The notes: generated from the letters alone by a model not told the origin. Shown: positions 4,648 through 32,798, counted from the first letter of the stretch. The stretch: DNA of 48,579 nucleotides from Candidatus Angelobacter sp. (GCA_036270475.1 DATBCN010000055.1:1-48579), one strand, 5' to 3'. Made by a program: numbers and translations.

Positions 4648-6117
4648 TTATTTTAACCGAGTGTATTTCAGATCAGCCTTGATGCCACTTTTGGGCTTCC
4701 CGCCGGCAGTAGTTTGCTGACCCAAAACCACGCACGCCGGAATCTTGATCTGTACTTCGCATCCTGCAGTGTCCGTTCTGTTCTGGATCGTCAATCTTCC
4801 GCCGTGCGCCTCAATGATCTGACGGCAAAGCACAAGGCCAATTCCGGTGCCGGTTTCCTTGGTGGTGTAGAAAGGCACAAAGAGATTTGAAGCGTCAAGC
4901 AGGCCCACGCCCCGGTCGCGCACCCAAAGCTCCAGATCATTCCCCGCGACACTCCAACTCATGCTGACGGCAGGCCCATCGTTAAAGGCGGGCATTCTCT
5001 CAATTGGATATTTTGTGATGACCGATTCAGTCCCATTCTTGGCGAGATTGATGAGCACCTGCTCAAGCTGGTCCGGGTCTACATTGATTGCGATATCAGG
5101 GCTGGGCAGCACCGTGACTGCGAGCCTTGCTTCCAGGCCGCTCACCCGCTCAGCCATATTTTTCAGGTCGATTGGGCGGCGCGTGGGTGGCGGCAGCTTG
5201 GATAGCTGGGCATAGCTTTGCAGAAAACGATTCAGCGCTTCCGCACGCGTGCCAATTACGTCGAGCCCAAGATCAAAGTCCTGATGGACCCTTTCCGGCA
5301 GCACGTTCTGTGACAGAATTCTACGCAGAGTGCGGGCCACCGATTTGATGGGAGCCAGAGAATTGTTGATCTCATGACTCAGCACGCGCACCATGCGCTG
5401 CCACGCCAGCCTCTCTTCCGCGCGCAACGCTTCTGACGCTTCAGAGAGCATTACCAGGTGGTGTGGGACGCCATTTTGGCGGAAGTGCGTGCGCCGCACG
5501 ATCCACCGCCTTTCAATGCCATTGGTGAGACGGGAAATCGTTTGCGACGTTGGACCGCCAAGAAGGTCGGCAATGCCTAATTCCCTGGCGTCCTGGTCTG
5601 CCAGCTCCTCTTCCCTCTTGCCGAGGAAGGCCGCAGCGGCGCGATTAAATAGTTTCAGCTTCCCATCGAGAGAAAAGGCCAGGATCACGCCTTCGGCTTC
5701 CGCAAGGACTTTGCGCAGAAGATTTTCCGCTTCCATCGTTCCCAGGCGCTCTGACTCCAGGGCCTGAGCCAGGTTGTTTATCTCGATTGCCAGGTCGCCC
5801 AGCGCGTCGCCAGAGACCGCGCGAGTGGCGCGAAAGGAGAAGTCGTCTTCCTTGAGAGATGCAACCACATTGGAAAGCACGCGGACGGAATTGACCACGC
5901 GATTACGCGCGGCAAATCCCAGGCCGAACCACAATAGTACGGAAAATACAGTGCCTTCAATCTTGTGGTCGAGCGAATAAGAGTTGCTCCAAAGCAGAAC
6001 GAAGCCCAAAATGGCGCAGGGAAGCCCCGTGCCAAGTACAGAAAGAAGCAATCGTCGTTCAAACGGCAGTGAAAACCGCCGCTTACTATTTTTCTTTCTT
6101 GACTGCGGAAGGAACAT
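4648..6117 (-). CDS. Sensor histidine kinase (2 TM, HAMP/PAS-like, HisKA, HATPase_c), NtrB/AtoS-like
   Basis: 489 aa. The H-box is LSHEINNSLAPI, the N-box NLAKNGTES, and the G-boxes DRGVGL and TGTGIGL. It overlaps the 3' end of the upstream response regulator gene by 32 nt. Confidence 0.85.
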   Translation of the reverse strand: MFLPQSRKKNSKRRFSLPFERRLLLSVLGTGLPCAILGFVLLWSNSYSLDHKIEGTVFSVLLWFGLGFAARNRVVNSVRVLSNVVASLKEDDFSFRATRAVSGDALGDLAIEINNLAQALESERLGTMEAENLLRKVLAEAEGVILAFSLDGKLKLFNRAAAAFLGKREEELADQDARELGIADLLGGPTSQTISRLTNGIERRWIVRRTHFRQNGVPHHLVMLSEASEALRAEERLAWQRMVRVLSHEINNSLAPIKSVARTLRRILSQNVLPERVHQDFDLGLDVIGTRAEALNRFLQSYAQLSKLPPPTRRPIDLKNMAERVSGLEARLAVTVLPSPDIAINVDPDQLEQVLINLAKNGTESVITKYPIERMPAFNDGPAVSMSWSVAGNDLELWVRDRGVGLLDASNLFVPFYTTKETGTGIGLVLCRQIIEAHGGRLTIQNRTDTAGCEVQIKIPACVVLGQQTTAGGKPKSGIKADLKYTRLK

Positions 6118-7588
6118 AGAGGCCGTGTTTTTCCATTCGCCGGTAGAATGTTCCCCGGCTCAGTCCCAGCACCTCGGCTGCCTGGCTCACGTTTCCGTTA
6201 TAGCGGGCCAGTGCCTTGCCGATCAACTGTGCTTCCACTTCTTCCAGGCTCAATTCAGCGAGATTGGCGGTTCGGGCATTGCTGGCAGAGGGAAGGCCCA
6301 AATGGTTCACGTCAATCTTCTCATCACGGCACATCAGGACGGCGCGTTCAATCGTGTGGTCCAGCTCCCTGACGTTTCCCGGCCAGTAATACTCCAGCAG
6401 TTTTTCCATTGCTTCCGGTGTGAAGCCATCAACCTGCTTGGTGTAGCGCTGGGTATATTTGTGGAGGAAATGTGAGGAGAGCGCGGGTATGTCTTCCCGC
6501 CTTTCGCGTAGAGGAGGTAAGGGAATTTCCACCGTATTCAGCCGGAACAACAAGTCTTCGCGGAAGCTTCCGTCGGCGCATGCGGCCTTAAGATTGGCAT
6601 TGGTGGCGGAAATTACACGCACGCTGACCTTCTGCGTCCGCGATGACCCCACGCGCTCCATTTCGCCGGTTTCAAGCACGCGCAAAAGCCTTGCTTGCTG
6701 CCGCATGGGAACGTTGGCAATTTCATCCAGGAACAATGTCCCGCCGTCGGCCATTTCAAAACGGCCAATGCGATCTGTGCGCGCGTCAGTAAAGGCGCCT
6801 CTTACATGGCCAAACAGCTCGCTTTCAAAAGTGCCTTCAGGCAGGCCGCCGGTATTCACTGTGATCAGCGGTTTATCCGCGCGGCGTGAAACCGCGTGCA
6901 ACATCTGTGCGACAACTTCCTTGCCGCTGCCATGTTCGCCGGTAATTAAGACGCTGGCATCAGACGGGCCAATTTGTGCAATCGCTTCGCTGACTGGCCG
7001 CATCGCGGGCGCCTGGGCCACAAAGGTGGTGCGGCCCTGGTTCCGCATCAACTGGTTTTCAGCCAACAGCCGCTGCCCTTGCCGCAAGGCCCTGTACAGC
7101 TCGGCATGGACCGTAATAGTGGAAACGAGCCGTTCGTCATCCCATGGTTTCTGGACGAAATCGCGGGCGCCGCGGCGCACTGCCGCAACGGCCAGATCAA
7201 TGGTGCCCCAGGCAGTCATGACGACAATGGGCAACTGGTTGTCAATTTCTCTCACCCGGTCAAGCAGTTCAATGCCCTCCCTGCCTGAAGTGGTGTCACG
7301 CGCGTAATTCAGATCAAGCAGCACGGCGTCATATTCCCGCAATGCCAGTGACTCCAGCACCACCTGGGGTGAGCGTACGGTGTCCACTTCAAAATGATGC
7401 GATCTGAACAACAATTTCAGCGCATCCAGCACGGCTGGCTGGTCGTCAGCTATCAGGACCCGGTAAGGCTGCTCATTGATACGCATAAGGGTATCGGTGT
7501 TGTCGGAGAGGAACGTTACACCAGGCCTTGAAAAGAAGCCGGTTGCGTCCACGAGCGATGGCAGGAAGCTCTCTCTGGTTTCCATCAC
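6086..7588 (-). CDS. Sigma-54-dependent response regulator (REC + AAA+ + Fis-type HTH), NtrC family
   Basis: The receiver is YRVLIADDQ...LLDLNY. Walker A is GEHGSGKE, the GAFTGA variant is GAFTDA, and Walker B is LFLDEI. The C-terminal HTH is GNVSQAAEVLGLSRGTFYRRM. The GTG at 7588 overlaps the permease stop (GTGA). An ATG at 7585 has a GAGGG SD 7 nt upstream, and M35 (7486) is a further possible start. Confidence 0.9.
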   Translation of the reverse strand: MMETRESFLPSLVDATGFFSRPGVTFLSDNTDTLMRINEQPYRVLIADDQPAVLDALKLLFRSHHFEVDTVRSPQVVLESLALREYDAVLLDLNYARDTTSGREGIELLDRVREIDNQLPIVVMTAWGTIDLAVAAVRRGARDFVQKPWDDERLVSTITVHAELYRALRQGQRLLAENQLMRNQGRTTFVAQAPAMRPVSEAIAQIGPSDASVLITGEHGSGKEVVAQMLHAVSRRADKPLITVNTGGLPEGTFESELFGHVRGAFTDARTDRIGRFEMADGGTLFLDEIANVPMRQQARLLRVLETGEMERVGSSRTQKVSVRVISATNANLKAACADGSFREDLLFRLNTVEIPLPPLRERREDIPALSSHFLHKYTQRYTKQVDGFTPEAMEKLLEYYWPGNVRELDHTIERAVLMCRDEKIDVNHLGLPSASNARTANLAELSLEEVEAQLIGKALARYNGNVSQAAEVLGLSRGTFYRRMEKHGLYVPSAVKKEK

Positions 7589-10074
7589 TCGGCCCTCAGC
7601 ACTACCATGGGTTCAATTGCTGTTGCGCGTGCAGCGATTACCAGGCTGGTCAAGAAAGCAATTGTTACAAGAAGCAGGGCTGCGGTTGCAAGAATTCCTA
7701 TGGTAGCGTCGGGCGTATTATAAATTAACGTACCAAGGAATTTAGCCAGAAAAATACTGGCTGCCGAGCCAAGCAGGATGCCAATGGCCACCAGCCCAAC
7801 CCCCTGTTTTACGATCAAACCTATTACCTGCGGCCTTTTGGCCCCTACAGCTACTCTCATGGCGATCTCCCTGGTACGCAAAATTAGCTGATAACTCAAT
7901 ATTCCATACAAACCCACCGCGGTCAGCAGCAGGGCAAAGGCCCCAAAAGCGCCAATCAATGACACATAAAAACGCGGCCGGGCCAAGGAAGTTGACACAA
8001 CCTGGGTCAGAGGCCGCAAGGACACTATCGCCAGATCGCGGTCAGCCCCGGTCAAGGCATGACGGAGCGATTCATAAACGTTGGCATATCTGTCAGAGCG
8101 GACAACAATCGAGGTTGGAAACAACCGGTTCATGAACGCCGTAATCTGGTCCGGCGCCTGTTTGGGATCAATAAAGACGGTGGGCGGTGGAAGTTTTTCC
8201 AGTCCTGTCTGCCGGACATCGGCAACCACCCCAATGACTTCACGCGGAACATCAGAAAACTGGCTGCCCAATTCGCTTCCCATCGCCACCATTTTTCCGA
8301 GTGGTGATTGATTGGGCCACCATTGCCGCGCCAGCCCCTCGCTCACGATTGCTACTGGCTTGTTGCCGCGATCATCGCGGTCTGAAAAAAATCTTCCGGC
8401 AAGGAGTGGTATACGAAGAGTGCGAAAATAATTGGCACTGACAACTCGAAACTGGGATTCTCCATACGGGCTGCTGTCCTGGACATCGGCGGGATACATG
8501 GGTATGCCCAGCCCCTGTTCCAGCGGCAAGCCGTTGATGCTGGCGACCGACTCCACTCCGGGAACATCTTTTAGCTGGGCGATCACTCTGTCCAGGAGCT
8601 GCGCCGTGGCTGCGGTTGTTGTATAGCGATCAGGCGCCAGGGAAATCTGCCCCACGGAAACGTTGTGCGGGTCAAAGCCTGGCTGGACCGATTGCAGCTT
8701 TAAAAAGTTTTGCAACAATGAAGCGGTCCCCGCCAGCAGGAGTAACGTCAGGGAAGTCTGGGCTGTAACGAGCATCCGGCCAAGCCGCGTCTGCTGGATA
8801 CTGTGACTGCCGGTTTGGGCGGATTGACGGATCATATCGTTCAAACTAACGCGGGACATCCTGATGGCCGGCGTGAGCCCGGATAAAACCGCCGTTGCCA
8901 CGGAGATAGTCAACACAAACAGGAGCACGTGCATGTCCATCCTGATCGTGCCGCTGAGCGGCAAGTCCGCCGGCACAAACCAACTGATGAAGGGAATCAG
9001 CTCCTTGCCGGCAATACTGCCAATTACTCCGCCAGTTATGCAGATTAGGATTCCATCCATCAGGAAAGTCCGGATCAACCGCCGCCTGCTGGATCCCAAA
9101 GCCGCCCTGATGGCAAACTCGTGGCCGCGGGCGGCGCCGCGAACAGTGAGGCATAGAGCCAGATTGGTGCATGTAATCAAAAGGACGAATATGACTGCGC
9201 CAAATAAGGAGAGAATACTTTTACGGACGCCCGAAACGATAAAATCCTGCAACTGATCTGGCGCCAGAGAAATGTCATCTGCTATGGAACGCACTGGATA
9301 AGTAAGGCGATAGTCTGCCGTCGAGGCCAATTCCTGCCGGGCATCCTGGAGGCTGATTCCGTCTCTCAAGCGCGCAATGACACGATACTCGTTTCCCGCA
9401 TCGAGAGTGGCCGAACTCAAAGGGAGCGGCAGCCACAGGTCCGCATCCGGATATGACTGAAACCCTTTTTGCATAATGCCCACGATGGAGTAGGGTTCCC
9501 CATTGATGTGAATTTCGCTTCCTACTGCGGACGCATCCTTGTTGTAATCCTGTTCCCACAAACCATAGCTCAGGATCACCACCCGTGGTCCGCCAGCCTG
9601 TTCTTCGTTTGGACTGAATTCTCTGCCCAGCACGGGGGAGGAGCCAAGGGTGCGAAAGAATTCCAGGGAAACCTGTTGCGCTTGCTTATATTGTGGCGAT
9701 CCCATGGCCGCCACGTTTACACCTGCATTCACACCCGCGTTTACGCCATGGACCGCGGCAATATCTCTAAAGGAACGCGAGCGTTCTTTCAGCATGAAAA
9801 ATGCTGGCGCCGAAATGTCTCTGGTTAGCCGTCCCTGGGAATTGTGCCAGGTGATAATCACCAGCCGGTCAGGGCTTATATAAGGTAGAGGGCGCAATAG
9901 GGAAGCGTTGACGATGCTGAAAACGATGGTGTTCGCGGCGATTCCCAGAGCGAGAGTAATGATTCCCATAGCGGCAAAACCGGGCGTCTTTTGGAGCGAA
10001 CGCATGGAATAGGATATGTCTTGAAGAAGCGTTCGCATTACCCTTACCGGCCCTCCTCTCTGCTTCACAAACAA
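7585..10074 (-). CDS. MacB/FtsX-type ABC transporter permease, duplicated orphan (ADOP-like) family
   Basis: 829 aa. It has the same N-terminal signature as the 2102 gene (LLQDISYSMRSLQKTPGFAAMGIITLALGIAANTIVFSIVNA) and two FtsX-like TM blocks. It is the first gene of a permease-RR-HK minus-strand operon. Confidence 0.85.
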   Translation of the reverse strand: MFVKQRGGPVRVMRTLLQDISYSMRSLQKTPGFAAMGIITLALGIAANTIVFSIVNASLLRPLPYISPDRLVIITWHNSQGRLTRDISAPAFFMLKERSRSFRDIAAVHGVNAGVNAGVNVAAMGSPQYKQAQQVSLEFFRTLGSSPVLGREFSPNEEQAGGPRVVILSYGLWEQDYNKDASAVGSEIHINGEPYSIVGIMQKGFQSYPDADLWLPLPLSSATLDAGNEYRVIARLRDGISLQDARQELASTADYRLTYPVRSIADDISLAPDQLQDFIVSGVRKSILSLFGAVIFVLLITCTNLALCLTVRGAARGHEFAIRAALGSSRRRLIRTFLMDGILICITGGVIGSIAGKELIPFISWFVPADLPLSGTIRMDMHVLLFVLTISVATAVLSGLTPAIRMSRVSLNDMIRQSAQTGSHSIQQTRLGRMLVTAQTSLTLLLLAGTASLLQNFLKLQSVQPGFDPHNVSVGQISLAPDRYTTTAATAQLLDRVIAQLKDVPGVESVASINGLPLEQGLGIPMYPADVQDSSPYGESQFRVVSANYFRTLRIPLLAGRFFSDRDDRGNKPVAIVSEGLARQWWPNQSPLGKMVAMGSELGSQFSDVPREVIGVVADVRQTGLEKLPPPTVFIDPKQAPDQITAFMNRLFPTSIVVRSDRYANVYESLRHALTGADRDLAIVSLRPLTQVVSTSLARPRFYVSLIGAFGAFALLLTAVGLYGILSYQLILRTREIAMRVAVGAKRPQVIGLIVKQGVGLVAIGILLGSAASIFLAKFLGTLIYNTPDATIGILATAALLLVTIAFLTSLVIAARATAIEPMVVLRAE

Positions 10075-10246: not shown

Positions 10247-10282
10247 TGTCCATCCTTGGACACTAGTGTTCATCCGTGGACA
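10247..10282. promoter_or_regulatory. Dyad pair B: TGTCCA-N4-TGGACA sites phased 20 bp apart
   Basis: TGTCCAtcctTGGACA (10247-10262) is a perfect palindrome. TGTTCAtccgTGGACA (10267-10282) has one mismatch. Confidence 0.6.
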
Positions 10283-10431
10283 CCGAGAGACGAGGGATTT
10301 AATTCGTTAGCGGAAAAATGCATGAAAAAGAAACGAAAACAGCTTTCAATTGCTCAAAGCATCAGGTGAACCAGAAGACAAGATTCTTGGATATTGAAGC
10401 GGCTGACGAACTTAGCCGGGCATCAGCAAAT

Positions 10432-10467
10432 TGTTCATCTCTGGACAACTCTTTCCAGCGCTGGACA
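10432..10467. promoter_or_regulatory. Dyad pair C: TGTCCA-N4-TGGACA sites phased 20 bp apart
   Basis: TGTTCAtctcTGGACA (10432-10447) and TTTCCAgcgcTGGACA (10452-10467) each carry one mismatch in the left half. Confidence 0.6.
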
Positions 10468-10632
10468 CTTTAGCGTGACGATCACCTTCCCATTTCCATA
10501 AGCACACACAGGCAAGGGCAGCCTGAAATCTTTTTTACCGGCGCTAAAACTGTAATATTTTCATGGTCCAAAGGGCTGTTTCATGGTGGATCTGGCCGAG
10601 ACTAAGACTTTCTAATACTTCCAGTTGCAAGG

Positions 10633-10725: not shown

Positions 10726-10741
10726 TTGGCCGTTCTCATGC
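10726..10741 (+). promoter_or_regulatory. Proximal candidate sigma-54 promoter of the lanthipeptide operon
   Basis: TTGGCCGTTCTCATGC has GG at 10728-10729 and GC at 10740-10741 in the 12-nt register. The predicted start lies about 44 nt before the precursor ATG at 10797. Confidence 0.5.
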
Positions 10742-10796
10742 TATTTAGCATGGGCGGGAACCCCCAACAAAATCTAAAAAAAGAGGAGACAAAACC

Positions 10797-10922
10797 ATGT
10801 CGAACGTACTGATGCTTCAGAGACTGCACTCCAACACCAGTTCTTCAGAATTCATGAACCTGTTTGGCAGCGCGGTAAGCACCGTTTGCCCCATTGGCGA
10901 TAGTCCGTTTCAGATGGAGTAG
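10797..10922 (+). CDS. Class III-type lanthipeptide precursor peptide (41 aa), not in the ORF track
   Basis: ATG 10797 is preceded by the SD GAGGAG (10783-10788, 8-nt spacing), and the stop is TAG 10920-10922. The product is MSNVLMLQRLHSNTSSSEFMNLFGSAVSTVCPIGDSPFQME. The leader carries VLMLQ, like the (I/V)L(D/E)LQ box of class III leaders. The core carries Ser-x2-Ser-x2-Cys (SAVSTVC). It lies 90 nt upstream of the synthetase gene. Confidence 0.65.
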   Translation: MSNVLMLQRLHSNTSSSEFMNLFGSAVSTVCPIGDSPFQME

Positions 10923-11012: not shown

Positions 11013-13703
11013 ATGCGGAGCCGACCCAATCCGTTGTATCGCTTGGTAGATAAGGATTACCACGAGAACTTTGACGCCTATGCGCCACAGAAAATGGATT
11101 TTTGTGACCTGGTTTTCGCAGGTCTTCCTGCAGGATGGGGCATTCAGCGAAGAGGCATTTGGTTTCATTGTGGTTCGCCTCAAAACGCCATGCCCCAGCA
11201 AGGCTGGAAGATTCACGTTTCCGCAACGCCGGCGAATGCGCGTGATCTGCTGCAACGTGTGAGCTCTGTACTTTTTGACAGACGAGATACCGATTTCAAG
11301 TTTGCTCTCGACATGTCAACCCTGTTCCTGCTCAACGGCAAAAATTGGTCTCGGGGCGGATCAGGAAAATTTATCACCGTATATCCCCATGACAATTATC
11401 ACTTTCTTGACCTGATGGAGCAACTCTATCGAGTCACTGAAGGGCAGCGTGGTCCATATATCCTTTCTGACCATCGTTATAAAGACAGCAACGTTCTGTT
11501 CTTTCGTTTTGGAGGTATGCGCCTCTATGACGTGCTCAATGTAAAAGGAGAGCGCACCCCCATGCTCGTGGCCCCGGATGGCACAGAAGTTCCGGACCAG
11601 AGAACAGCATATCCAGTAACGCCATCATGGGAAAATCCTCCTCTGCCCCTGGGAGACCCGGCCACGCAGCAGGAATCCCAGGGAATGAAAGGTGGGCGTT
11701 ATCAGATTCAGGATGTGCTCGATTTTTCTAATGCCGGAGGAGTGTACAGGGCGATTGACCAGCAAACTGGCAAGAAGGTTGTGATCAAAGAAGCCCGCCC
11801 GTGCATCAATTCCACGTTCGATGGCTATGACGCTGTTGAGCTGCTCAAGAAAGAGCATCGTCTGCTCACCGTCCTGAAAGACACTGGCATTGCGCCCCAG
11901 CCGGTGGATCTCTTTAAGGAATGGGAACATTGGTTTCTGGTTGAAGAATTCATCGAAGGCGATTCCATGGGCGCGCACTCCGCGCAGCACAATGTGCTGC
12001 TAAGGACCAGGCCCAGACCGGAACAGTATGAAGAGTGGTATGCAACTTTTCGTTCCGTCTGCGTCAGCCTGGCAAGGATCATGGACGTGCTGCATGCCCA
12101 CCAAATCGTCTTTGCGGATCTCTCCATCAATAATCTTATTGTGCTCGCCGGCAAGGCGGAGTTGACGCTGATTGATTTTGAAGGAGCAAGCCAGATTGGG
12201 GTTGACCGCCCAAGTACGGTTTTTACACCGGGTTTTGTTTCAGAAAACCGGCTCGCCGGATCTAACGCCGCGTATGCGGATGACTATTATTCGGTTGGTG
12301 CAGTCCTGCTCGCGTATCTGTTTCCCATCAACTCTCTTTTTCATCTCAAGCCAAAAGCGAAGCGGGAAATATTGGCCACGATTCAGAGAGATGCAAAGCT
12401 TCCCAAGGCAATCGCTGATTTGCTGCTGGATTTGATGGACCAGGATCCTGCGCGGCGGCCAGTGCCTGCCAAAATGCTGGAAGTGCTGGCTTCAGAGCCG
12501 GTAATTGAAAAGCAAATTGTTCCAGTTCCATCTGAGCGAAATTTTGAACCATTGTTGAATGGCATCGTGGCGCATATTGAACAGGCTGCAACCTATGCAC
12601 GCCAGGACCGGCTATTTCCGGCTGATCCAAAAGTGTTTGCTACCAACCCTCTTAGCCTTGCCTATGGCGCGGCTGGAGTTGGATATGCGCTCACCGAAAT
12701 CAAAGGGACCCGCTCAGATGAGCTATTAGACTGGGTCCTCCGCCACAAGATTGCACCCCAAACTTATGCCCCCGGCTTATACGTGGGTATGGCAGGGATC
12801 GCACAATGCCTGCTGGAAATGGGCGCTGTAAAGGAAGCGGAAGAACTCTTCCAGCAGACATTTCGGCATCGTTTGCTGCATGACGCTCCCGGCATTTTTT
12901 ATGGGACCGCCGGTTGGGGCATGGCGAATCTCCGGTTCTTTCTGCAAACGGGCAATCAACTTTATTTGGATGAAGCAACCAAAGCCGGCAACCATCTGCT
13001 TGAGACGTGCCTACTGGCGCCTGCCGGCTGCTTCTGGGGCACGCCCAATGAGACGCCTCTTGGATTAGCGCATGGGGCCAGCGGCATCGCGGTTTTTTTA
13101 CTGTATCTCTACCTGGCTACCCGCAATGAGGTTTTTTTAGAAGCCGGACGCCGGGGACTGGAATTTGATCTCAGCTTTGCGGTGACAACCAAAGACGGCG
13201 GTCTGTCCTGGCGTCAAGCCACGCAAGGGCAGTCGCCGCTCTTTCCATACTGGCGATTTGGCAGCGCCGGTATCGGCATGGCTGTGCTGCGCTATGCCCG
13301 GGTCCTGCGCACGGAAAACTATCAATCAATCCTGGAAAAAATCTTTATCGATACTGACCGCAAATACGTGGTCCTTCCGGGAAAGTTCATTGGTCTGGCG
13401 GGAATCGGCGATTTCATGCTCGATATGCATCAGTTTACCGGTGAGGCCAGATACCTTGAATCCGCCATAAAAGCGGCTGAAGGCATTCAGAAATTCCGCG
13501 TCGAGAGACAACAAGGCATAGCGTTTCCCGGAGATATGCTTTCCCGGCTCTGTTGTGACTACGGCACAGGCAGCGCGGGAATTGGACTCTTTCTGAACCG
13601 TCTTCTGCGCCGGCGAAAGAGTGACTTCATGTTGGATTGCCTGTTAGAACAATCCGGACTGCTGCCATCGTTGCAGCAAATACAAGTATCGCAATCGGCG
13701 TGA
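11013..13703 (+). CDS. Class III (possibly IV) lanthipeptide synthetase: N-terminal phospho-Ser/Thr lyase, central Ser/Thr kinase, C-terminal LanC-like cyclase domain
   Basis: 896 aa. Lyase-domain marks are QGWKIHVS and GKFITVYP. Kinase marks are VVIKEARP (Lys), the FADLSINN catalytic loop and LIDFEG. The cyclase repeats are GLAHGASGIA, then WRFGSAGIG where zinc-type LanC has WCxG, then LCCDYGTGSAGIG. At least one zinc-ligand Cys is therefore absent, which is class III-like. Confidence 0.85.
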   Translation: MRSRPNPLYRLVDKDYHENFDAYAPQKMDFCDLVFAGLPAGWGIQRRGIWFHCGSPQNAMPQQGWKIHVSATPANARDLLQRVSSVLFDRRDTDFKFALDMSTLFLLNGKNWSRGGSGKFITVYPHDNYHFLDLMEQLYRVTEGQRGPYILSDHRYKDSNVLFFRFGGMRLYDVLNVKGERTPMLVAPDGTEVPDQRTAYPVTPSWENPPLPLGDPATQQESQGMKGGRYQIQDVLDFSNAGGVYRAIDQQTGKKVVIKEARPCINSTFDGYDAVELLKKEHRLLTVLKDTGIAPQPVDLFKEWEHWFLVEEFIEGDSMGAHSAQHNVLLRTRPRPEQYEEWYATFRSVCVSLARIMDVLHAHQIVFADLSINNLIVLAGKAELTLIDFEGASQIGVDRPSTVFTPGFVSENRLAGSNAAYADDYYSVGAVLLAYLFPINSLFHLKPKAKREILATIQRDAKLPKAIADLLLDLMDQDPARRPVPAKMLEVLASEPVIEKQIVPVPSERNFEPLLNGIVAHIEQAATYARQDRLFPADPKVFATNPLSLAYGAAGVGYALTEIKGTRSDELLDWVLRHKIAPQTYAPGLYVGMAGIAQCLLEMGAVKEAEELFQQTFRHRLLHDAPGIFYGTAGWGMANLRFFLQTGNQLYLDEATKAGNHLLETCLLAPAGCFWGTPNETPLGLAHGASGIAVFLLYLYLATRNEVFLEAGRRGLEFDLSFAVTTKDGGLSWRQATQGQSPLFPYWRFGSAGIGMAVLRYARVLRTENYQSILEKIFIDTDRKYVVLPGKFIGLAGIGDFMLDMHQFTGEARYLESAIKAAEGIQKFRVERQQGIAFPGDMLSRLCCDYGTGSAGIGLFLNRLLRRRKSDFMLDCLLEQSGLLPSLQQIQVSQSA

Positions 13704-15016
13704 TGCTCAAAATCGGAGGACCATTGGCTGAGAACGGCAATGACGAGAGCAATGGCGCCGTTGAAGAACGAGACGAACTAACTGGAGCGCTTGCAGACAT
13801 TTTCCTTAGGGTGCGTAAGAGCCTAATCGCCAGTGAGCCTGGCGGCGCTGCAAGTTCTGATGTTTCAGTTCAGGGTGGGGAAAGAATTTATGTCCCGGAA
13901 GGCCCACAACTCTATGACGGGACCTCAGGAATCGCGCTATTTTTGGCCGCCTACCACTACGCCACAAATAATCAGGACGCTCGCGATCTGGCACTGCGTT
14001 CCGCGGCGCGTCTGCGTTTCGCAATCAAGCAAAGTGCTACAGCGGCAAGCCTCGCCCGCCAGTCCGGCAATGGAACTGGGGGGCTGGCTGGCGTGGGATC
14101 TCTTCCGTACGCCTTTGTGCATCTTGCGGCTTGGTTGAAAGTGCCTGAATTTATTGATGCTGCTCGCGAAGTGGCCACCAATATCATGCCGGAACAGATC
14201 ATGGCGGAAGAACGCCTTGATGTTATGCGCGGCTGTGCGGGTACATTGCTGGCCCTTCTGTCCTTTATTGAAGAAGTGACCGCAATGGGCATGGACTGTG
14301 GCATCGCGCCGGACCTTGCCCTACTCTGCGGGCGGCGATTACTGGAAAAACGCATCTCGTATAATTCCGGTCCGCGGGCATGGTCGGCTGGGGATTCGCT
14401 TCCACTCTCAGGATTTGCCCATGGCGCGGCAGGCATTGCTTATGCCCTGGTCCGGCTCTTTCAATACACTGGACAGGAAGAATTTCGCGATGCTGCCATC
14501 GAAGGATTCGCTTTCGAACGTACTCTTTATATTCCGGAACTTCAAACCTGGTTCGATCCTCGCTGCAATCTGCCATTGAGCAAAGCTTCGTGGTGCGAGG
14601 GTGCGCCCGGAGTGGCGCTGGGTATTTTGGGCAGCATGATCGCAATTGATTCACATGCCTTACGCCATGATCTTGAACAAGCGCTCAGCATTACCCGCAT
14701 GCTTCCTGAAGGGCCAGTCGACCATTTATGTTGCGGCAATTTTGGCAGAGTTGAGATCATGAATATTGCGGGCAGCGTCCTGGGCCGGTTGCAGCTTACC
14801 GCGCACGCCCGCCAACTGGCCACGCAACTCCTGGCTCGCGCGGCCACTTCCGGCTTCCGCTTTCAACCCATTGATCATCAGCCCTCCTTACCTGACATGT
14901 CTGAAAATAATCCATCTCTATTTCTTGGGCTGGCTGGAGTGGGTTATACCTTGCTGCGGCTGAATTACCCTGATCTTTTTCCCTCAGTCCTGCTGCTGGA
15001 CACAATCGTCCTATAG
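13703..15016 (+). CDS. Stand-alone LanC-like lanthionine cyclase with a full zinc-ligand set
   Basis: ATG 13703 overlaps the LanKC stop (TGATG). The ORF track extends it to 13637. Motifs are SGFAHGAAGIAYAL (GxAHG), SWCEGAPGVALG (WCxG) and HLCCGNFG, which has Cys-Cys where NisC has Cys-His, as in three-Cys LanM cyclase domains. There are seven GxxG-type repeats. Confidence 0.8.
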   Translation: MLKIGGPLAENGNDESNGAVEERDELTGALADIFLRVRKSLIASEPGGAASSDVSVQGGERIYVPEGPQLYDGTSGIALFLAAYHYATNNQDARDLALRSAARLRFAIKQSATAASLARQSGNGTGGLAGVGSLPYAFVHLAAWLKVPEFIDAAREVATNIMPEQIMAEERLDVMRGCAGTLLALLSFIEEVTAMGMDCGIAPDLALLCGRRLLEKRISYNSGPRAWSAGDSLPLSGFAHGAAGIAYALVRLFQYTGQEEFRDAAIEGFAFERTLYIPELQTWFDPRCNLPLSKASWCEGAPGVALGILGSMIAIDSHALRHDLEQALSITRMLPEGPVDHLCCGNFGRVEIMNIAGSVLGRLQLTAHARQLATQLLARAATSGFRFQPIDHQPSLPDMSENNPSLFLGLAGVGYTLLRLNYPDLFPSVLLLDTIVL

Positions 15017-15272: not shown

Positions 15273-16976
15273 ATGACGAAAACAGATGACCTCTTTTTTG
15301 CAGCCAAGAGATTGAGAGGAACGGTTATGGGCGCCATATACTTTTCTTGCGATCAGGAATCATTGTTCATGGGATTGTCAATATTGCTGCGCGGGATCTC
15401 TTATCCCAGCCAGGCGGGAGAAACCATTGCCTCATCGTTCGAATCGGCAGCTAGGGGGCTTGGCGCCGCCCGCGGTGGATTGTTTTTGGTTCGGCACCAC
15501 CCGTCCGCAACTCGTTTGGAAACGCTGTGTCATTATCAAATGAACCCACAACATATCCGTGCCATTGAGTACGGTACTGATTCTGAAGATGCTGCCACTA
15601 GCCGGATCTGGAAAATTTTCAGCCAATGGGATGCAGGAACAAGCTCCTGGAAGGCTGGACCAATCGAGAAGGCAGCACCCAACTTGTACGTCATTTGCAT
15701 TCCGATCATAGACCCGGTACTTGATTCACCCGTTGCTGTTTTGCATTTTGAAAAAGAGACTGAGAACAACCCAGAGTTTGAGGCGGTGGCAAAAGAGTGG
15801 ATCACTCCATACGCGCTTGCACTGGGGCAAATCCTGAACCTTGGCTTCTCATCCACACAGGTCGAGATCGAAAGCGATGGAAAAGCAATCGATATCAAAA
15901 CGCCCGAGAATGCTCCGGAGTTGATTGGTGTTTCGGTGCAGACCCAGGCCTTGCGCCAGGAGCTGCACGATATTCACATTCCCGCGGCAAGCGCCCCAGA
16001 TCCTGACCCGATTCTGATCCTGGGTGAAAAGGGAACGGGCAAGGACCTGATTACGCGATATATCTATGCCTACAGCACGCGCCGCAATCGGCCCTATGTG
16101 GCGGTGAATTGTGCGGAGATCACGGATGAACTGGCAAGCGCGCGTTTCTTTGGGCATAAAAAAGGCTCTTTTACCGGATCGCTGGCCAACGAGCCTGGGC
16201 TATTCAGAGCGGCCGACCACGGCGTGCTCTTTCTTGATGAGATAGGCGATCTCTCACTCAAAGCGCAGGGAACTTTACTGCGCGTGCTGGAGAACCGCAC
16301 TGTCGTCCCGCTTGGGGAAACCAGAGAACAGCGAATTGATGTGCAGGTGATTCTGGGGACCAACTGTGATCCAGACCGCGCTGTTGCCGAGGGACGTATG
16401 CGTCCTGATCTTCTTGATCGTTTTCGCACTCAGGCAATCCGGCTGGCCCCGTTACGCGAACGGCCATGGGACATTCCCGCGCTGGTCCGTCATTTCATCG
16501 CTTACAACGAGAAGCGCACCCAGAAAAAAATCCTCAGCCTCCACGCCGATGTGCTGAAGATGCTGGTCGGGTATTCCTGGCCGGGCAACGTGCGGGAGTT
16601 GGCAAGGATATGTTCCTTGCTGGTTACGCATGTGAAGTCTGGCAGCCCAATTGATGCAGCGCTGTTCAGCCGGGTCATTCCTAATATCGGGAAGGAAGAA
16701 TGGAACCCTAAGGCTGGCGCAATGCTCGTGGGGAACGTTCCTATGCGGGAAGCCCTGGAAACCTTTGGACGTGAACTGATTCTTGCTCGTCTGCGGCAGC
16801 ACAACTGGAACATCAAGTCAGCGCGCGAAAGCCTTGGCCTTCCCAAAACAACGTTTCATCGTTATACACGCGCCCTGGGAATCGCCGGTTCCGTTCGCGA
16901 CGAACTAGCAGGAATAGAACAGTTCCCATATCCGACAAAACCGTTTGCTGGCGGAGGAATTCCCGCACTCAGTTGA
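15273..16976 (+). CDS. Sigma-54-dependent transcriptional activator (N-terminal sensory domain, AAA+, C-terminal HTH); no receiver domain
   Basis: 567 aa. Walker A is GEKGTGKD, the GAFTGA variant is GSFTGS, and Walker B is LFLDEIGDL. WPGNVREL and the HTH NIKSARESLGLPKTTFHRY are present. The ~230-aa N-terminal region looks GAF-like (tentative). Confidence 0.85.
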   Translation: MTKTDDLFFAAKRLRGTVMGAIYFSCDQESLFMGLSILLRGISYPSQAGETIASSFESAARGLGAARGGLFLVRHHPSATRLETLCHYQMNPQHIRAIEYGTDSEDAATSRIWKIFSQWDAGTSSWKAGPIEKAAPNLYVICIPIIDPVLDSPVAVLHFEKETENNPEFEAVAKEWITPYALALGQILNLGFSSTQVEIESDGKAIDIKTPENAPELIGVSVQTQALRQELHDIHIPAASAPDPDPILILGEKGTGKDLITRYIYAYSTRRNRPYVAVNCAEITDELASARFFGHKKGSFTGSLANEPGLFRAADHGVLFLDEIGDLSLKAQGTLLRVLENRTVVPLGETREQRIDVQVILGTNCDPDRAVAEGRMRPDLLDRFRTQAIRLAPLRERPWDIPALVRHFIAYNEKRTQKKILSLHADVLKMLVGYSWPGNVRELARICSLLVTHVKSGSPIDAALFSRVIPNIGKEEWNPKAGAMLVGNVPMREALETFGRELILARLRQHNWNIKSARESLGLPKTTFHRYTRALGIAGSVRDELAGIEQFPYPTKPFAGGGIPALS

Positions 16977-17084
16977 AGTTGGCCAATAAAAATGAATTGG
17001 ATACATCGTTCTGCTGTTTGCGATGTTAACAAAGCACAAATTCGTTCAGATATTTTCGTATTGCGGATAAAGGAGTAAAAATCA

Positions 17085-17405
17085 ATGATAGAACCATGGT
17101 TCGACCCAATTCGATATTCGTGGATTACAGGCGTTACGTTTGGTGCAATAGCACTGGCGCTGGGTGCGCTTGCAGCATGGCTCGTTCCTAAAGGCAAAGC
17201 CAAAGGGTTTATTGTTAGCTCATGGGTGGGCTTGTGGGCTGCGGCAATCATTCTTCTGATTACGGGAATCGTGGCCTTCCACGATCAGCAGCCCTGGGGC
17301 GTGTGGTATGGCCTGCTGCTGCCGGGCATTGTTGGTACCGCGGTAGTCGGAGGGAACCTGTTTGTCATCCTAAAGCGATACCATGAAGTGGAGCACCGCC
17401 AGTAG
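17085..17405 (+). CDS. Small integral membrane protein (3 predicted TM helices), unknown function
   Basis: 106 aa. The SD AAGGAG lies 9 nt upstream of the ATG. There are three hydrophobic stretches (ITGVTFGAIALALGALAAWLV, WVGLWAAAIILLITGIVAF, GLLLPGIVGTAVVGGNLFVIL). Confidence 0.55.
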   Translation: MIEPWFDPIRYSWITGVTFGAIALALGALAAWLVPKGKAKGFIVSSWVGLWAAAIILLITGIVAFHDQQPWGVWYGLLLPGIVGTAVVGGNLFVILKRYHEVEHRQ

Positions 17406-17584: not shown

Positions 17585-17686
17585 CTTCCTTTCAATCTCT
17601 CCAAAAATTTTGACGCAAGCCATGGCTGTATGCGTGTCTAGTCTTTGTGGAAGTGTGAAAGCCTAACTTACCTCAAGGTTGATTTC

Positions 17687-19132
17687 ATGAAAGCCCCCCC
17701 CGCATTGTCTGCCGCGTCTCTTTGTGCTTTTTCTGCAGCGGAGATCGCGCAACTGGTTCGTTCGCGGGAAGTCTCCGCTGTCGAAGTGATGCAGCAGTAC
17801 GCCGAACGTATACAGAAGCTGAATCCAGTATTGAATGCTTTTGCGCATCTCGATTTGGATCGTGCTTTCGCGGAAGCAAAGCGCATCGATTCAGATGGGT
17901 GCCACGATTCCACGGAAAGCACTCTGTTGGGCGTGCCGGTCACCATAAAATCCTGTATTGACGTGAAAGGTTTGCGTTGCGCGGCGGGAAGCCGCTTAAG
18001 GTCAGATTACATAGCCGCAAGCGATGCTCCCGTGGTTGCCCGCCTTAAAAAGGCCGGAGCAATCGTGATTGGCAATACTACGACTCCTGAAATGTTGATG
18101 GCTTATCACACAAAAAATGACATCCACGGGCGGACTAACAATCCCTGGGACTTGAGCCGCACTCCAGGAGGCTCCAGCGGCGGCGAAGCTGCAGCCATTT
18201 CTTCCGGCATGTCTGCTGGTGGATTGGGCAGTGATGGCGGGGGATCCATTCGAGTTCCCGCGCATTTCACCGGAATCTGCGGACTCAAGCCGACGCCCGG
18301 CCTGGTTCCCTCTACGGGGCACTATCCTGCATGCGTTGGCCCTTTCTCCCTTATCGGCGTGGTAGGACCGATGGCGCGGACCGTAAAAGATTTGCAATTG
18401 CTTTTTGCGGCAGTCGTGGGCTATGGTCCCGCTGATCCCGCATCCCTACCCACGATGGTAAAAGTCCTGGATCGCAAGCACGTGAAGCAACTGCGCATTG
18501 GCTATTACGAAGATGATGGAGAAAGCTATCCGGGGGCCGAGACAACCGCTGCAGTTCGTGCCGCGGCTGGTGCTTTAAGGAGTGCCGGGTTCATTGTGGA
18601 AGCTTTTCGTCCGAAAGGTCTTGCAGATGCGCGGGAGCTATGGACTGTGATTTTTGTTGAGGCTGGCGCGTTGCTTCTGGCGACGTTGGTTCGAGGGCGT
18701 GAAGATGAGGTAAACCCCAATACACGGGAGTTTCTTGCTCTCGCTGCCGCTCGTCCCGCGCTGACGGGCGAGCGTTTGCTGGGCGCATTGATTGAACAAG
18801 ACCAGTTGCGCATGCGCGTAGAAGAGCAGATGCGCGACTATCCCATTTTGCTGGCGCCGGTCTGTTCCATGCCGGCATTTCCTCACCAGGATGCAGGGTG
18901 GGGACCGGAGCATGAGGCCGACTATCTGCGCACCATGACCTACTGCCAACATTACAACCTTCTGGGCAACCCTGCCGCTACTGTTCCGATTACTCAATCA
19001 CCAGAAGGTTTGCCGATAGGCGTGCAGATTATCGGACGCCCTTGTCACGACCATGAAGTCCTGGCTATCGCAGAAGCATTGAACGAACAATATAAGTGGA
19101 GAGAGCCCCCTCTGTGCAGGGCGATGGCATGA
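17687..19132 (+). CDS. Amidase-signature family amidase (GatA-like fold)
   Basis: The amidase signature is GGSSGGEAAAISSGMSAGGLGSDGGGSIRVPA. The catalytic Lys context is VPVTIKSCID. The ORF track starts at TTG 17645, but ATG 17687 (MKAPPALSAASL) is more likely. Confidence 0.85.
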   Translation: MKAPPALSAASLCAFSAAEIAQLVRSREVSAVEVMQQYAERIQKLNPVLNAFAHLDLDRAFAEAKRIDSDGCHDSTESTLLGVPVTIKSCIDVKGLRCAAGSRLRSDYIAASDAPVVARLKKAGAIVIGNTTTPEMLMAYHTKNDIHGRTNNPWDLSRTPGGSSGGEAAAISSGMSAGGLGSDGGGSIRVPAHFTGICGLKPTPGLVPSTGHYPACVGPFSLIGVVGPMARTVKDLQLLFAAVVGYGPADPASLPTMVKVLDRKHVKQLRIGYYEDDGESYPGAETTAAVRAAAGALRSAGFIVEAFRPKGLADARELWTVIFVEAGALLLATLVRGREDEVNPNTREFLALAAARPALTGERLLGALIEQDQLRMRVEEQMRDYPILLAPVCSMPAFPHQDAGWGPEHEADYLRTMTYCQHYNLLGNPAATVPITQSPEGLPIGVQIIGRPCHDHEVLAIAEALNEQYKWREPPLCRAMA

Positions 19133-20550: not shown

Positions 20551-20868
20551 GCCTGATGTCTATAGTTTAGCGGCTCTACTGAATCAGTTTGAATCCAGAG
20601 AGGATTCGTGCCATGCGCTCACCTGAGCGTTGCCCATGATTTTGATCCGCAAATAACCCTGCAAGCTCTGTCTTAAAGCAGATGACAGGCAACTGCGCAC
20701 TATCGCACTGACTCTGCGATATGCCAGACAGTGAGTGGTTCGACCCAAAACTGAACCTTTAGCCGTTTGGAAGATATTAATGGCCCTAAAACTCCTCGCC
20801 GTGTGATCCATTGTTATTACTGCATTTGATAGCAAACGATGATATGAACCCTGCCCCGACCGATAAAA

Positions 20869-21561
20869 ATGTCGTCAGCTATGCGCGATGAACAGATGGC
20901 TAGCCAAAGGTCCTCTTCCGTCCCTCTCTGCCCGCAAGACCGCATTTCCGTTCTTCTTGTAGACGATCATGGTCTGGTGCGCCGGGGCTTTAGGCGCATC
21001 TTGGAAGATAGTAAGGACATTTGGGTTATTGGCGAAGCGAGCGATGGGGCCGCCGCGGTCAAGATGGTTCAGGAGCTAGCGCCTCACGTAGTCATCATGG
21101 ATTGCGCCCTTCCCGGAATGAGCGGCCTTACGGCGACAAATCGAATCGTGGAAATATCAACGGGGACGAACGTGCTGATGTTGAGCATGCATGCCGAAGA
21201 TACCTGGGTGCGCAAGGCACTCAGCGTTGGTGCGCGAGGTTACATTCTGAAGAATGCTGTTGATTTGGACCTGGTGACGGCGGTGAAGAAAGTGGCAGGG
21301 GGAGAAATAGTACTTGACCCGCAGCTTTCCCGCCGGTGCGTCTTGAAGGGCGAAAGGAACCATGGTCTTACCCACAGGGAGTTGCAAATTCTCCAACATA
21401 TAGTAGCAGGCAAATCAAACAAAGAGATCGCCGGGCAGCTCGATATCAGCGTGAATACGGTGGCGGTTCATCGCGCCAACATGATGCAGGCTCTGGGAAT
21501 CCACAATGCCGCGGGACTTGTCGCTTACGCAATTCGGAATGGCTTGATCAATGTTCTGTAG
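20869..21561 (+). CDS. Response regulator, NarL/LuxR family (REC + LuxR-type HTH)
   Basis: 230 aa. The receiver is ISVLLVDDH...VVIMDCALPGMSG. The HTH is LTHRELQILQHIVAGKSNKEIAGQLDISVNTVAVHRANMM. The exact start among M1, M5 and M10 is uncertain. Confidence 0.85.
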   Translation: MSSAMRDEQMASQRSSSVPLCPQDRISVLLVDDHGLVRRGFRRILEDSKDIWVIGEASDGAAAVKMVQELAPHVVIMDCALPGMSGLTATNRIVEISTGTNVLMLSMHAEDTWVRKALSVGARGYILKNAVDLDLVTAVKKVAGGEIVLDPQLSRRCVLKGERNHGLTHRELQILQHIVAGKSNKEIAGQLDISVNTVAVHRANMMQALGIHNAAGLVAYAIRNGLINVL

Positions 21562-24756: not shown

Positions 24757-24760
24757 TTTC

Positions 24761-32787: not shown

Positions 32788-32798
32788 CCGTAGGCGAA

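What the first reader, a model, noticed from the sequence alone, without database searches (positions are those of the whole stretch)
13703..15016. Two cyclases for a one-cysteine core: a zinc-type LanC coupled to a ligand-poor LanKC
The LanKC cyclase domain has WRFG where zinc-dependent LanC proteins have WCxG, so its zinc site appears incomplete. The translationally coupled stand-alone LanC keeps GxAHG, WCEG and a Cys-Cys pair (HLCCGNFG). That is the three-Cys ligand arrangement known from ProcM-type LanM domains. The only candidate precursor has a single Cys (C31) but many Ser/Thr (S25, S28, T29, S36 in the core). Either the two cyclases divide labour on one ring (carbacycle versus thioether), or further substrates are encoded elsewhere. 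A third possibility is that the LanC adds an external thiol to a dehydro-residue, as LanCL proteins do with glutathione. None of these arrangements is standard for class III systems.
Basis: partly seen in the sequence, partly recalled or inferred. Interest (0 to 1): 0.7.

Follow-up and report, generated by a model that had tools for sequence, protein, structure and literature searches.

The report
Lanthipeptide cluster with extra zinc cyclase
A soil acidobacterium's class III lanthipeptide operon carries, directly behind its normal zinc-free synthetase, an extra zinc-type cyclase recruited from class I systems; this hybrid is conserved but uncharacterised, and it could show what zinc adds to ring formation.

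Summary
A 41-aa precursor (10797-10922) is followed by a class III LanKC (11013-13703) and a stand-alone LanC (13703 or 13724 to 15016). The LanC has GFAHG, WCEG and LCCG motifs.

Two parts of the framing are ordinary. Lacking zinc ligands defines class III; this LanKC has R748/F792/I793 at the three ligand positions. The single-Cys core SAVSTVC is the canonical Sx2Sx2C labionin/lanthionine motif.

The unusual part is the LanC, and it is real and conserved. LanKC-associated LanCs form one clade (bootstrap 0.88) nested among class I LanCs that sit beside split LanB genes. They are distinct from LanM cyclase domains. In every intact locus they lie within about 40 nt of the LanKC stop. All three zinc cysteines are kept in 16 of 16.

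Many sister clusters have the same regulators, permease, precursor type and LanKC but no LanC, so it is an accessory gene. Its presence tracks a precursor signature, N-Φ-Φ-G-S-A-[VI]-S-T-[VIM]-C-P.

The most likely role is a trans-acting zinc cyclase acting on the LanKC-dehydrated peptide. The ring product is unknown. I found no published precedent in the library searched. This is a new variant of a known kind, of moderate to high specialist interest.

The parts
10797..10922 (+). lanA precursor, 41 aa. The leader carries VLMLQ (the LxLQ class III motif). The core is S25-A-V-S28-T29-V-C31-P, an Sx2Sx2C motif, and the C-terminus is FQME.
   Evidence: Orthologous precursors lie upstream of every related LanKC. 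There is no NCBIfam match.
11013..13703 (+). Class III lanthionine synthetase LanKC (896 aa). Domains: lyase aa 37-220, kinase aa 241-489, zinc-free cyclase aa 546-871. Ligand-equivalent residues are R748, F792 and I793. H687 lies at the NisC His212-equivalent position.
13703..15016 (+). Stand-alone zinc-type LanC, 437 aa from ATG 13703 or 430 aa from TTG 13724. Key residues: D173, H240 (nt 14420-14422), C298 (14594-14596), C343/C344 (14729-14734).
   Evidence: AF2 model: pLDDT 85, pTM 0.87, LanC-type alpha-toroid.
10727..10742 (+). Sigma-54-type -24/-12 promoter-like element, TGGCCGTTCTCATGCT, upstream of lanA.
   Evidence: Read. Conserved in L001, L002, L086 and L091. Function is inferred.
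10248..10468 (.). Four 16-bp inverted repeats, TGT(C/T)CA-N4-TGGACA and a CCAG-N2-CTGGACA variant, at 10248-10263, 10268-10283, 10432-10447 and 10453-10468. They are putative enhancer sites for a sigma-54 activator.
   Evidence: conserved blocks. Function is inferred.
7585..10074 (-). ADOP-family duplicated MacB/FtsX permease, divergent from lanA. Probably export or immunity.
   Evidence: Conserved beside LanKC in both LanC+ and LanC- loci.
4648..7588 (-). Histidine kinase (4648-6117) and sigma-54-dependent response regulator (6086-7588), the conserved regulatory pair of the cluster.
15273..17405 (+). Second sigma-54 activator lacking a receiver domain (15273-16976) and a small membrane protein (17085-17405). 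Both are conserved only in the window's nearest relatives, so they are not tied to LanC in general.

Best explanation
This is a class III lanthipeptide operon (lanA-lanKC) that has acquired a class I-type stand-alone cyclase with a Cys3 zinc site.

Shown: the acquisition happened once, from LanB/LanC clusters of the same phylum, and the LanC has since been inherited together with LanKC.

Inferred mechanism:
- LanKC binds the LxLQ leader. Its kinase and lyase domains convert S25, S28 and probably T29 to Dha/Dhb.
- The co-expressed LanC then acts in trans on the leader-bearing dehydrated peptide, as class I cyclases do.
- Its Zn(Cys)3 site activates the single Cys31 thiol for Michael addition within the S-A-V-S-T-V-C segment.
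- LanC thereby takes over, or redirects, ring closure that sister LanKCs perform without metal. The redirection could concern regiochemistry, stereochemistry, or lanthionine versus labionin.
- The LanKC cyclase domain is kept because class III cyclase domains are also needed for leader binding and productive dehydration. It may still handle the enolate.

The exact ring product is unknown.
For: 1. LanKC-associated LanCs are monophyletic (bootstrap 0.88). They nest among LanCs associated with split LanB (0.98) and are separate from LanM cyclase domains (0.98) (gene contexts). Their ancestors were therefore trans-acting peptide cyclases.
2. In all LanC+ loci with an intact LanKC, the LanC start lies between -4 and +37 nt of the LanKC stop. 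LanKC and its cluster are the only neighbours conserved across both LanC+ subclades.
3. The subclade structure of the LanC tree mirrors the LanKC tree.
4. All three zinc cysteines are present in 16 of 16 LanKC-associated LanCs, down to about 45% identity.
5. LanC presence goes with a tight precursor signature, N-Φ-Φ-G-S-A-[VI]-S-T-[VIM]-C-P. LanC- precursors instead have [MVI]-S-[ST]-x-S-x-[IV]-C.
6. LanKC residue 557 is Gly in 16 of 16 LanC+ sequences and in 0 of 26 LanC- sequences.
7. The catalytic residues of the LanKC lyase and kinase are invariant (against PMC10604976).
8. Cyclase-domain mutants of ThurKC and TherKC also impair dehydration (PMC10604976, PMC13504147). This explains why the domain would be retained.
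Against: 1. Sister LanKCs lack LanC yet have the same Sx2Sx2C-P motif and identical cyclase-domain motifs. LanKC alone should therefore be able to cyclise.
2. The LanKC cyclase domain shows no relaxed constraint in LanC+ lineages.
3. There is only one Cys for two cyclases.
4. The LanC catalytic His is replaced by Tyr or Arg in 6 of 16 LanKC-associated LanCs. The LanB-associated LanCs and the reliably aligned LanM relatives in the same alignment all keep His. This hints at a non-canonical role.
5. The LanKC backbone phylogeny is unresolved. The precursor and G557 covariation may therefore reflect shared ancestry alone.
6. No biochemistry exists for any member.
Confidence: 0.5

Rival explanations
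1. LanCL-like thiol transferase. LanKC makes the Cys31 ring itself. LanC adds an external thiol (a low-molecular-weight thiol or another peptide's Cys) to a leftover dehydro residue such as Dhb29.
For: The ring region has one Cys but at least three dehydratable residues. Thr at position -2 relative to Cys, an extra potential electrophile, co-occurs with LanC: 11 of 13 LanC+ precursors against 0 of 18 LanC-. The top Foldseek matches of the AF2 model are GCR2, LanCL2 and LanCL1, although their E-values are similar to those of LicM2, MadC and CuvL. The catalytic His is dispensable in this clade.
Against: By sequence and phylogeny, the nearest relatives are peptide cyclases from LanB/LanC and LanM systems, not LanCL proteins. 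No thiol-biosynthesis gene is co-conserved. LanCL glutathione-binding residues were not examined.
Confidence: 0.17
2. Non-catalytic or auxiliary partner. LanC binds LanKC or LanA as a scaffold or chaperone, or acts as an immunity or sequestration factor. In this reading the zinc site is structural.
For: The catalytic His is lost in 6 of 16. A single LanKC cyclase-domain site (G557) tracks LanC presence, which would be compatible with an interface. The genes are tightly linked, perhaps translationally coupled, which favours 1:1 assembly. Class III cyclase domains can mediate protein-protein contacts, as in TherKC dimers (PMC13504147).
Against: Asp173, WCxG and CCG are all invariant or nearly so, which is the pattern of an active zinc cyclase. 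Tyr could substitute for His as the general acid. No complex prediction or binding data were obtained.
Confidence: 0.13
3. LanC serves substrates encoded elsewhere in the genome, or is a redundant passenger gene.
For: LanC is absent from many otherwise identical clusters. CCG-type cyclases are known for broad substrate tolerance; this rests on my own knowledge of ProcM and was not tested here.
Against: No other LxLQ-leader, Cys-containing precursor lies in the window, and none was found within about 1 kb upstream of LanKC in related loci. The LanC has been kept next to LanKC, with an intact zinc site, through divergence to about 45% identity. The precursor signature covaries with LanC presence. 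A passenger gene would have decayed or moved.
Confidence: 0.1

Closest known systems
Class III lanthipeptide systems (LanKC: ThurKC/andalusicin, TherKC, LabKC/labyrinthopeptin, CurKC)
   Same: The enzyme has the same three domains: lyase, kinase and a metal-free cyclase. The precursor has an LxLQ leader and an Sx2Sx2C core; LanC- relatives even carry STYSNIC, matching the STxSNxC motif of subclasses III-a and III-c. A single enzyme suffices in sister clusters.
   Different: A second, zinc-type cyclase gene follows LanKC. The phylum is Acidobacteriota. The LanKC cyclase domain keeps a His at the NisC His212 position and has F-I rather than F-D at the ThurKC F770/D771 positions. The cluster is embedded with sigma-54 regulators and an ADOP permease.
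Class I stand-alone LanC cyclases (NisC, MadC), in particular the CCG-type LanCs next to split LanB genes in Acidobacteriota, Thermoanaerobaculia and Longimicrobium
   Same: It is a stand-alone protein of about 420-440 aa with the LanC fold, and it has Asp, GxAHG and WCxG. It is the phylogenetic sister or descendant of these LanCs. Trans action on a dehydrated, leader-bearing peptide is expected.
   Different: The partner dehydratase is a LanKC, not a LanB. The zinc site is Cys3 (CCG) rather than the Cys-Cys-His of NisC. The substrate has one Cys and a class III leader. The LanB-associated relatives instead have multi-Cys cores behind GG-type leaders. The catalytic His is variable within the LanKC-associated clade.
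ProcM-type (CCG) LanM cyclase domains
   Same: The zinc-ligand arrangement is the same Cys-Cys-Cys (WCxG plus CCG). The best NCBIfam match is to LanM positions 575-932, and the best PDB sequence match is LicM2.
   Different: There is no DUF4135 dehydratase domain, so it is not a LanM. It falls outside the LanM clade (bootstrap 0.98).
LanCL / GCR2 eukaryotic LanC-like proteins
   Same: They share the fold and give the top Foldseek hits (TM about 0.66-0.70). They are also stand-alone proteins that work downstream of a kinase-plus-lyase type of dehydration.
   Different: Sequence identity is only about 16-17%. Their zinc site is Cys-Cys-His. They add glutathione between molecules, and there is no evidence for that here.
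Class IV LanL synthetases (VenL, SgbL, CuvL)
   Same: They combine a lyase-kinase dehydratase with a zinc-dependent cyclase.
   Different: In LanL the zinc cyclase is the fused C-terminal domain. Here the fused domain is zinc-free and the zinc cyclase is a separate gene of class I origin. The LanKC scores below the LanL cut-off.

Membership tests
Class III lanthionine synthetase (LanKC) | Three-domain architecture: N-terminal pSer/pThr lyase, Ser/Thr kinase, C-terminal LanC-like domain | tested here: met
   RamC_N 3.9e-56, Pkinase 1.4e-16, LANC_like 8.5e-25. NF038151 scores 767.8 against a cut-off of 575. ThurKC (8sao) aligns over residues 45-865.
Class III lanthionine synthetase (LanKC) | The cyclase domain lacks the three zinc ligands (NisC C284/C330/H331 equivalents) | tested here: met
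   hhalign places R748, F792 and I793 at these positions. This agrees with the ThurKC S726/F770/D771 mapping (PMC10604976). Metal content is not testable here.
Class III lanthionine synthetase (LanKC) | Cognate precursor with an LxLQ-type leader and an Sx2Sx2-5C core | tested here: met
   VLMLQ and SAVSTVC. Both are conserved in more than 40 related precursors.
Class III lanthionine synthetase (LanKC) | Catalytic lyase and kinase residues (ThurKC K65/H67/K94/K117/D152/R163/R191; DFE motif) | tested here: met
   K66, H68, K96, K119, D153, R165, R197 and D388-F389-E390 are invariant in alignment A2 (correspondence).
Class IV lanthionine synthetase (LanL) | Zinc ligands retained in the fused cyclase domain | tested here: not met
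   0 of 3 ligands. NF038150 scores 578.6, below its cut-off of 650.
Zinc-dependent LanC cyclase (PF05147, class I type) | Alpha,alpha-toroid LanC fold as a stand-alone protein | tested here: met
   PF05147 3.8e-47 covering profile positions 3-350 of 350, with no other domain. AF2 pLDDT 85 and pTM 0.87. Foldseek hits to LanCL, LicM2, MadC, CuvL and NisC.
Zinc-dependent LanC cyclase (PF05147, class I type) | Three zinc ligands plus the catalytic Asp and His | tested here: met
   D173, H240, C298 and C343/C344 are present in the window protein. The cysteines are kept in 16 of 16 clade members, but His in only 10 of 16.
Zinc-dependent LanC cyclase (PF05147, class I type) | Encoded next to a LanB dehydratase | tested here: not met
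   The neighbour is LanKC, and there is no Lant_dehydr_N/C gene among the ORFs scanned in the window. Relatives outside the clade do sit beside split LanB genes.
Zinc-dependent LanC cyclase (PF05147, class I type) | Binds zinc and catalyses thioether formation | not testable with these tools
   Needs ICP-MS and reconstitution.
ProcM-type class II LanM | Fused N-terminal DUF4135 (PF13575) dehydratase domain | tested here: not met
   The protein is 437 aa with only PF05147. TIGR03897 scores 256, below its cut-off of 304, and matches only the C-terminal third of the model. It lies outside the LanM clade.
LanCL-type glutathione transferase | Glutathione-binding pocket and intermolecular thiol addition | not tested
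   Only fold similarity was seen. Binding residues were not compared.

The most novel reading that the evidence does not exclude
The zinc LanC and the metal-free LanKC cyclase domain act on the same Cys31/Dha system in sequence. Zinc would activate the thiol, while the LanKC domain (or the LanC variants with His replaced by Tyr) decides the fate of the enolate. The pair would then set lanthionine versus labionin, or produce a ring that neither enzyme makes alone. Natural LanC+ and LanC- sister clusters would be a ready-made system for separating thiol activation from C-C bond formation in class III biosynthesis.
Probability: 0.2. Interest if true: 0.8.

Novelty: new variant of a known kind. 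Interest (0 to 1): 0.58.

Why it matters
Two questions about class III cyclase domains are open: how they work without zinc, and what decides lanthionine versus labionin (PMC8341899, PMC10604976). This family offers a natural comparison. Closely related clusters have the same regulators, transporter, precursor type and LanKC, and they differ in whether a zinc cyclase of class I origin is present. The difference comes with a matching shift in the core sequence. Reconstituting one LanC+ pair and one LanC- pair would show directly what a zinc site adds. The family also shows that class-defining lanthipeptide enzymes can be recombined across classes (a class III dehydratase with a class I cyclase). 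Large-scale mining reported such mixing as very rare (PMC7268733). Finally, it opens an untapped RiPP family in uncultured Acidobacteriota.

Tried and rejected
1. I first read the LanKC segment RLCCDYGTG (aa 845-853) as a relic of the CCG or CHG zinc motif. I rejected this. hhalign aligns it to the last GxxG repeat of LanC (PSLFLGLAGVG), and the true ligand positions are F792/I793. The HMMER alignment to ThurKC agrees.

2. I tested whether the LanKC cyclase domain decays once LanC is present.
   - The motifs are the same in LanC+ and LanC- sequences.
   - The ratio of cyclase-domain to N-terminal divergence is 0.93-0.98 in LanC+ against 0.88-0.93 in LanC-, so there is no clear relaxation.
   - Isolated changes occur: D627G in the window's subclade, H687D in L086-88 and R748Q in subclade 2. 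They amount to a few events, and LanC- lineages show similar ones.

3. I looked for LanC pseudogene remnants downstream of LanC- LanKCs, including L092 and L094. There are none.

4. I asked whether L092 and L094 are secondary losses nested inside the LanC+ clade. The NJ tree suggests so, but bootstrap support for the backbone is only 0.15-0.5. The number of gains and losses on the LanKC tree is therefore unresolved. Monophyly of the LanC clade (0.88) is what supports a single acquisition.

5. I searched the window for a second LxLQ-leader precursor. Only chance ORFs inside other genes turned up.

6. The 419-aa gene after the LanKC in L085 is not a LanC.

7. I searched the literature for a LanKC paired with a stand-alone LanC and found nothing (papers read). 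The library lacks most subscription-journal papers, so absence there is not proof.

8. The Foldseek ranking cannot separate a LanCL-like role from a cyclase role.


Full report
**What is there**

The region holds three co-directional genes. The first is a 41-aa precursor at 10797-10922, MSNVLMLQRLHSNTSSSEFMNLFGSAVSTVCPIGDSPFQME. The second is an 896-aa LanKC at 11013-13703. The third is a LanC ORF ending at 15016.

- The LanKC has RamC_N, Pkinase and LANC_like domains. It passes the NCBIfam class III model (767.8 bits, cut-off 575) and fails the class IV model (578.6 bits, cut-off 650).
- The LanC has only PF05147 (E=3.8e-47). Its best family match is the C-terminal third of the LanM model. 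Its best solved relative by sequence is LicM2.
- An AF2 model (pLDDT 85, pTM 0.87) has the LanC toroid fold. It matches LanCL, GCR2, LicM2, MadC, CuvL and NisC.
- ADOP permeases in the window and the names attached to homologues point to Acidobacteriota: Terriglobia or "Candidatus Angelobacter".

**Start codon**

ATG 13703 shares one base with the LanKC TGA. In the closest relatives that ATG is out of frame. The conserved start there is the TTG equivalent to 13724, preceded by GGAGGA. Some more distant homologues do begin at the ATG-equivalent position. The intergenic distance is therefore -1 or +20 nt. The genes are operonic, but coupling through an overlapping stop and start is unproven.

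**The zinc site of the LanKC**

A profile-profile alignment of the LanC family against the LanKC family pairs LanC H240/C298/C343/C344 with LanKC H687/R748/F792/I793. So 0 of 3 ligands are kept. This agrees with the published structural mapping for ThurKC, where S726/F770/D771 replace NisC C284/C330/H331 (PMC10604976; alignment).

The RLCCDYG segment near the LanKC C-terminus looks like a CCG motif, but it aligns to the last GxxG repeat.

Absence of zinc ligands is the defining property of class III (PMC8341899, PMC7268733), so the ligand-poor LanKC is ordinary. The one-Cys core is likewise ordinary, because S25-x-x-S28-x-x-C31 is the canonical class III labionin/lanthionine motif behind an LxLQ leader.

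This acidobacterial LanKC family does have two peculiarities. It keeps a His at the NisC His212 position, and it lacks the Asp equivalent to ThurKC D771.

**Is the LanC really tied to LanKC?**

- I scanned one genome per species and classified the neighbours. The five closest LanC homologues (44-82% identity) all lie directly downstream of a LanKC.
- Other stand-alone relatives lie next to a split LanB, that is Lant_dehydr_C plus Lant_dehydr_N.
- The remaining hits are C-terminal domains of CCG-type LanMs, mostly from cyanobacteria.
- I also scanned metagenomes with the LanKC family (classified) and ran targeted look-ups.
- These show a conserved module: histidine kinase, sigma-54 response regulator and ADOP permease, divergent from precursor plus LanKC.
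- Of the distinct full-length LanKCs, 16 are followed by a LanC and 31 are not.
- Where LanC is present and LanKC is intact, its start lies between -4 and +37 nt of the LanKC stop.
- Genes further downstream are conserved only among the window's nearest relatives.

LanC is nevertheless an accessory gene, not a universal part of this cluster type.

**Origin**

In a tree of cyclases, the LanKC-associated LanCs are monophyletic (bootstrap 0.88). Together with the LanB-associated stand-alone LanCs they form a group (0.98) that excludes LanM domains (0.98). The LanB-associated LanCs are paraphyletic around them.

The subclade structure of the LanC tree matches that of the LanKC tree. The simplest history is one recruitment of a class I-type CCG LanC into a class III operon, followed by co-inheritance.

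The LanKC backbone is poorly resolved, so I cannot say whether the LanC- lineages L092 and L094 are secondary losses.

**Signs of function**

- All three zinc cysteines are kept in 16 of 16 LanKC-associated LanCs. D173 is invariant in the 26-sequence family alignment A1.
- The catalytic His is replaced by Tyr (5 cases) or Arg (1 case) in 6 of 16. The LanB-associated LanCs and the reliably aligned LanM relatives in the same alignment all keep it.
- LanC+ precursors share a tight signature: F-x-N-L-F-G-S-A-[VI]-S-T-[IVM]-C-P. Position -5 is Ala in 12 of 13, position -2 is Thr in 11 of 13, and position -7 is Gly in 10 of 13.
- LanC- precursors instead have [MVI]-S-[ST]-x-S-x-[IV]-C-(P), with a small residue at -2.
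- One residue of the LanKC cyclase domain, 557, is Gly in every LanC+ sequence and never in LanC- sequences.
- With few independent evolutionary events, these correlations are suggestive rather than statistically secure.
- The LanKC cyclase domain shows no motif loss and no accelerated divergence in LanC+ lineages.

**Mechanism**

*Shown:* the gene content, the ancestry, the linkage, the conservation of the zinc ligands and the precursor covariation.

*Inferred:*
- LanKC dehydrates S25, S28 and probably T29.
- LanC is a descendant of trans-acting class I cyclases and uses Zn(Cys)3 to activate Cys31 for ring closure on the same peptide.
- LanC either replaces or redirects the metal-free cyclisation that sister LanKCs do alone.
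- The Dhb and beta-branched residues packed around the ring in LanC+ cores may make closure harder without zinc. This last point is speculation.
- The LanKC cyclase domain would be retained because class III cyclase domains are also required for productive dehydration (PMC10604976, PMC13504147).

Three rivals remain, in decreasing likelihood:
- LanCL-like addition of an external thiol to a spare dehydro residue.
- A non-catalytic partner role.
- Unlinked substrates. No second LxLQ precursor lies in the window.

**Comparison with what is known, and novelty**

The LanKC is a regular member of class III. The LanC is a zinc-type LanC of class I descent with a ProcM-like Cys3 site. It is neither a LanM nor a LanL domain.

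I found no report of a LanKC paired with a stand-alone zinc LanC in the held literature. Walker et al. state that clusters mixing class-defining enzymes are very few, and they mention only LanM with LanB/LanC and LanM with LanKC.

I rate this a new variant of a known kind. It is a conserved class III/class I hybrid found in at least about 15 distinct uncultured Acidobacteriota lineages. Its value is as a natural experiment on what zinc contributes to class III ring formation.

Noticed in passing
window 10727-10742; also L001, L002, L086, L091 (alignment A3, columns about 597-621): A sigma-54-type -24/-12 element, TGGCCGTTCTCATGCT, with GG and GC 12 nt apart, sits about 55 nt upstream of the precursor start. 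It is conserved in relatives. This fits the sigma-54 response regulator upstream and the second sigma-54 activator downstream.
   Followed up: partly
window 10248-10263, 10268-10283, 10432-10447, 10453-10468: Four copies of a 16-bp inverted repeat (TGTCCA/TGTTCA-N4-TGGACA, plus a CCAG-N2-CTGGACA variant) lie 330-550 nt upstream of lanA. The blocks are conserved in related loci. They are probably enhancer-binding sites.
   Followed up: partly
LanKC aa 687, 792-793, 848 (window nt 13071-13073, 13386-13391, 13554-13556): This acidobacterial LanKC family keeps a near-invariant His at the NisC His212 position. It has Phe followed by a variable residue where ThurKC has its essential F770-D771, and an invariant Cys848 in the last repeat. 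This active-site make-up differs from the characterised class III subclasses.
   Followed up: partly
LanC aa 240 across L004, L005, L091, L093, L095, L097 and P0012, P0015, P0020, P0021, P0024, P0026, P0033, P0036, P0065: The catalytic His of GxAHG is replaced by Tyr, Leu or Arg in many LanKC-associated LanCs, while the three zinc cysteines stay invariant. The LanB-associated LanCs and the reliably aligned LanM relatives keep His.
   Followed up: partly
Precursor C-termini: window 10908-10919; L001-L005, L081-L166: Nearly all precursors of this family, with or without LanC, end in a conserved F-[QE]-[ML]-[EDQ] tail and have Pro directly after the ring Cys. The role is unknown; it may be an export or processing signal.
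   Followed up: no
L164 10313-10937; L165 10067-10429; also L008, L058, L060, L075: Acidobacteriota, Thermoanaerobaculia and Longimicrobium carry class I clusters with a CCG-type LanC and a split LanB. They encode tandem precursors such as ...EIEPLSDEALEAVAGG-KSSCGPVCCSCSNCS.... This looks like an uncharacterised class I family and the apparent donor of the LanC.
   Followed up: partly
L085 8784-14700: One LanC- LanKC cluster is followed by a 419-aa protein with no Pfam hit that is not a LanC, then a NusG-like gene and a split LanB. A class III and a class I system therefore sit side by side, the kind of neighbourhood in which a LanC could be captured.
   Followed up: no
window 22280-35941: A separate gene set lies downstream: two ketosynthases, HMG-CoA reductase, a sigma-70/MarR-like regulator, an amine oxidase or phytoene-desaturase-like flavoprotein, an acyltransferase, two ABC1 kinases and an RPE65-type carotenoid oxygenase. 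It is probably a lipid, isoprenoid or carotenoid cluster unrelated to the lanthipeptide genes.
   Followed up: no
window 17645-21561: An amidase and a HisKA_3 kinase with a LuxR-type response regulator lie downstream of the cluster. L001 also has the amidase and the kinase, but more distant LanC+ loci do not. They are probably not part of the pathway.
   Followed up: partly
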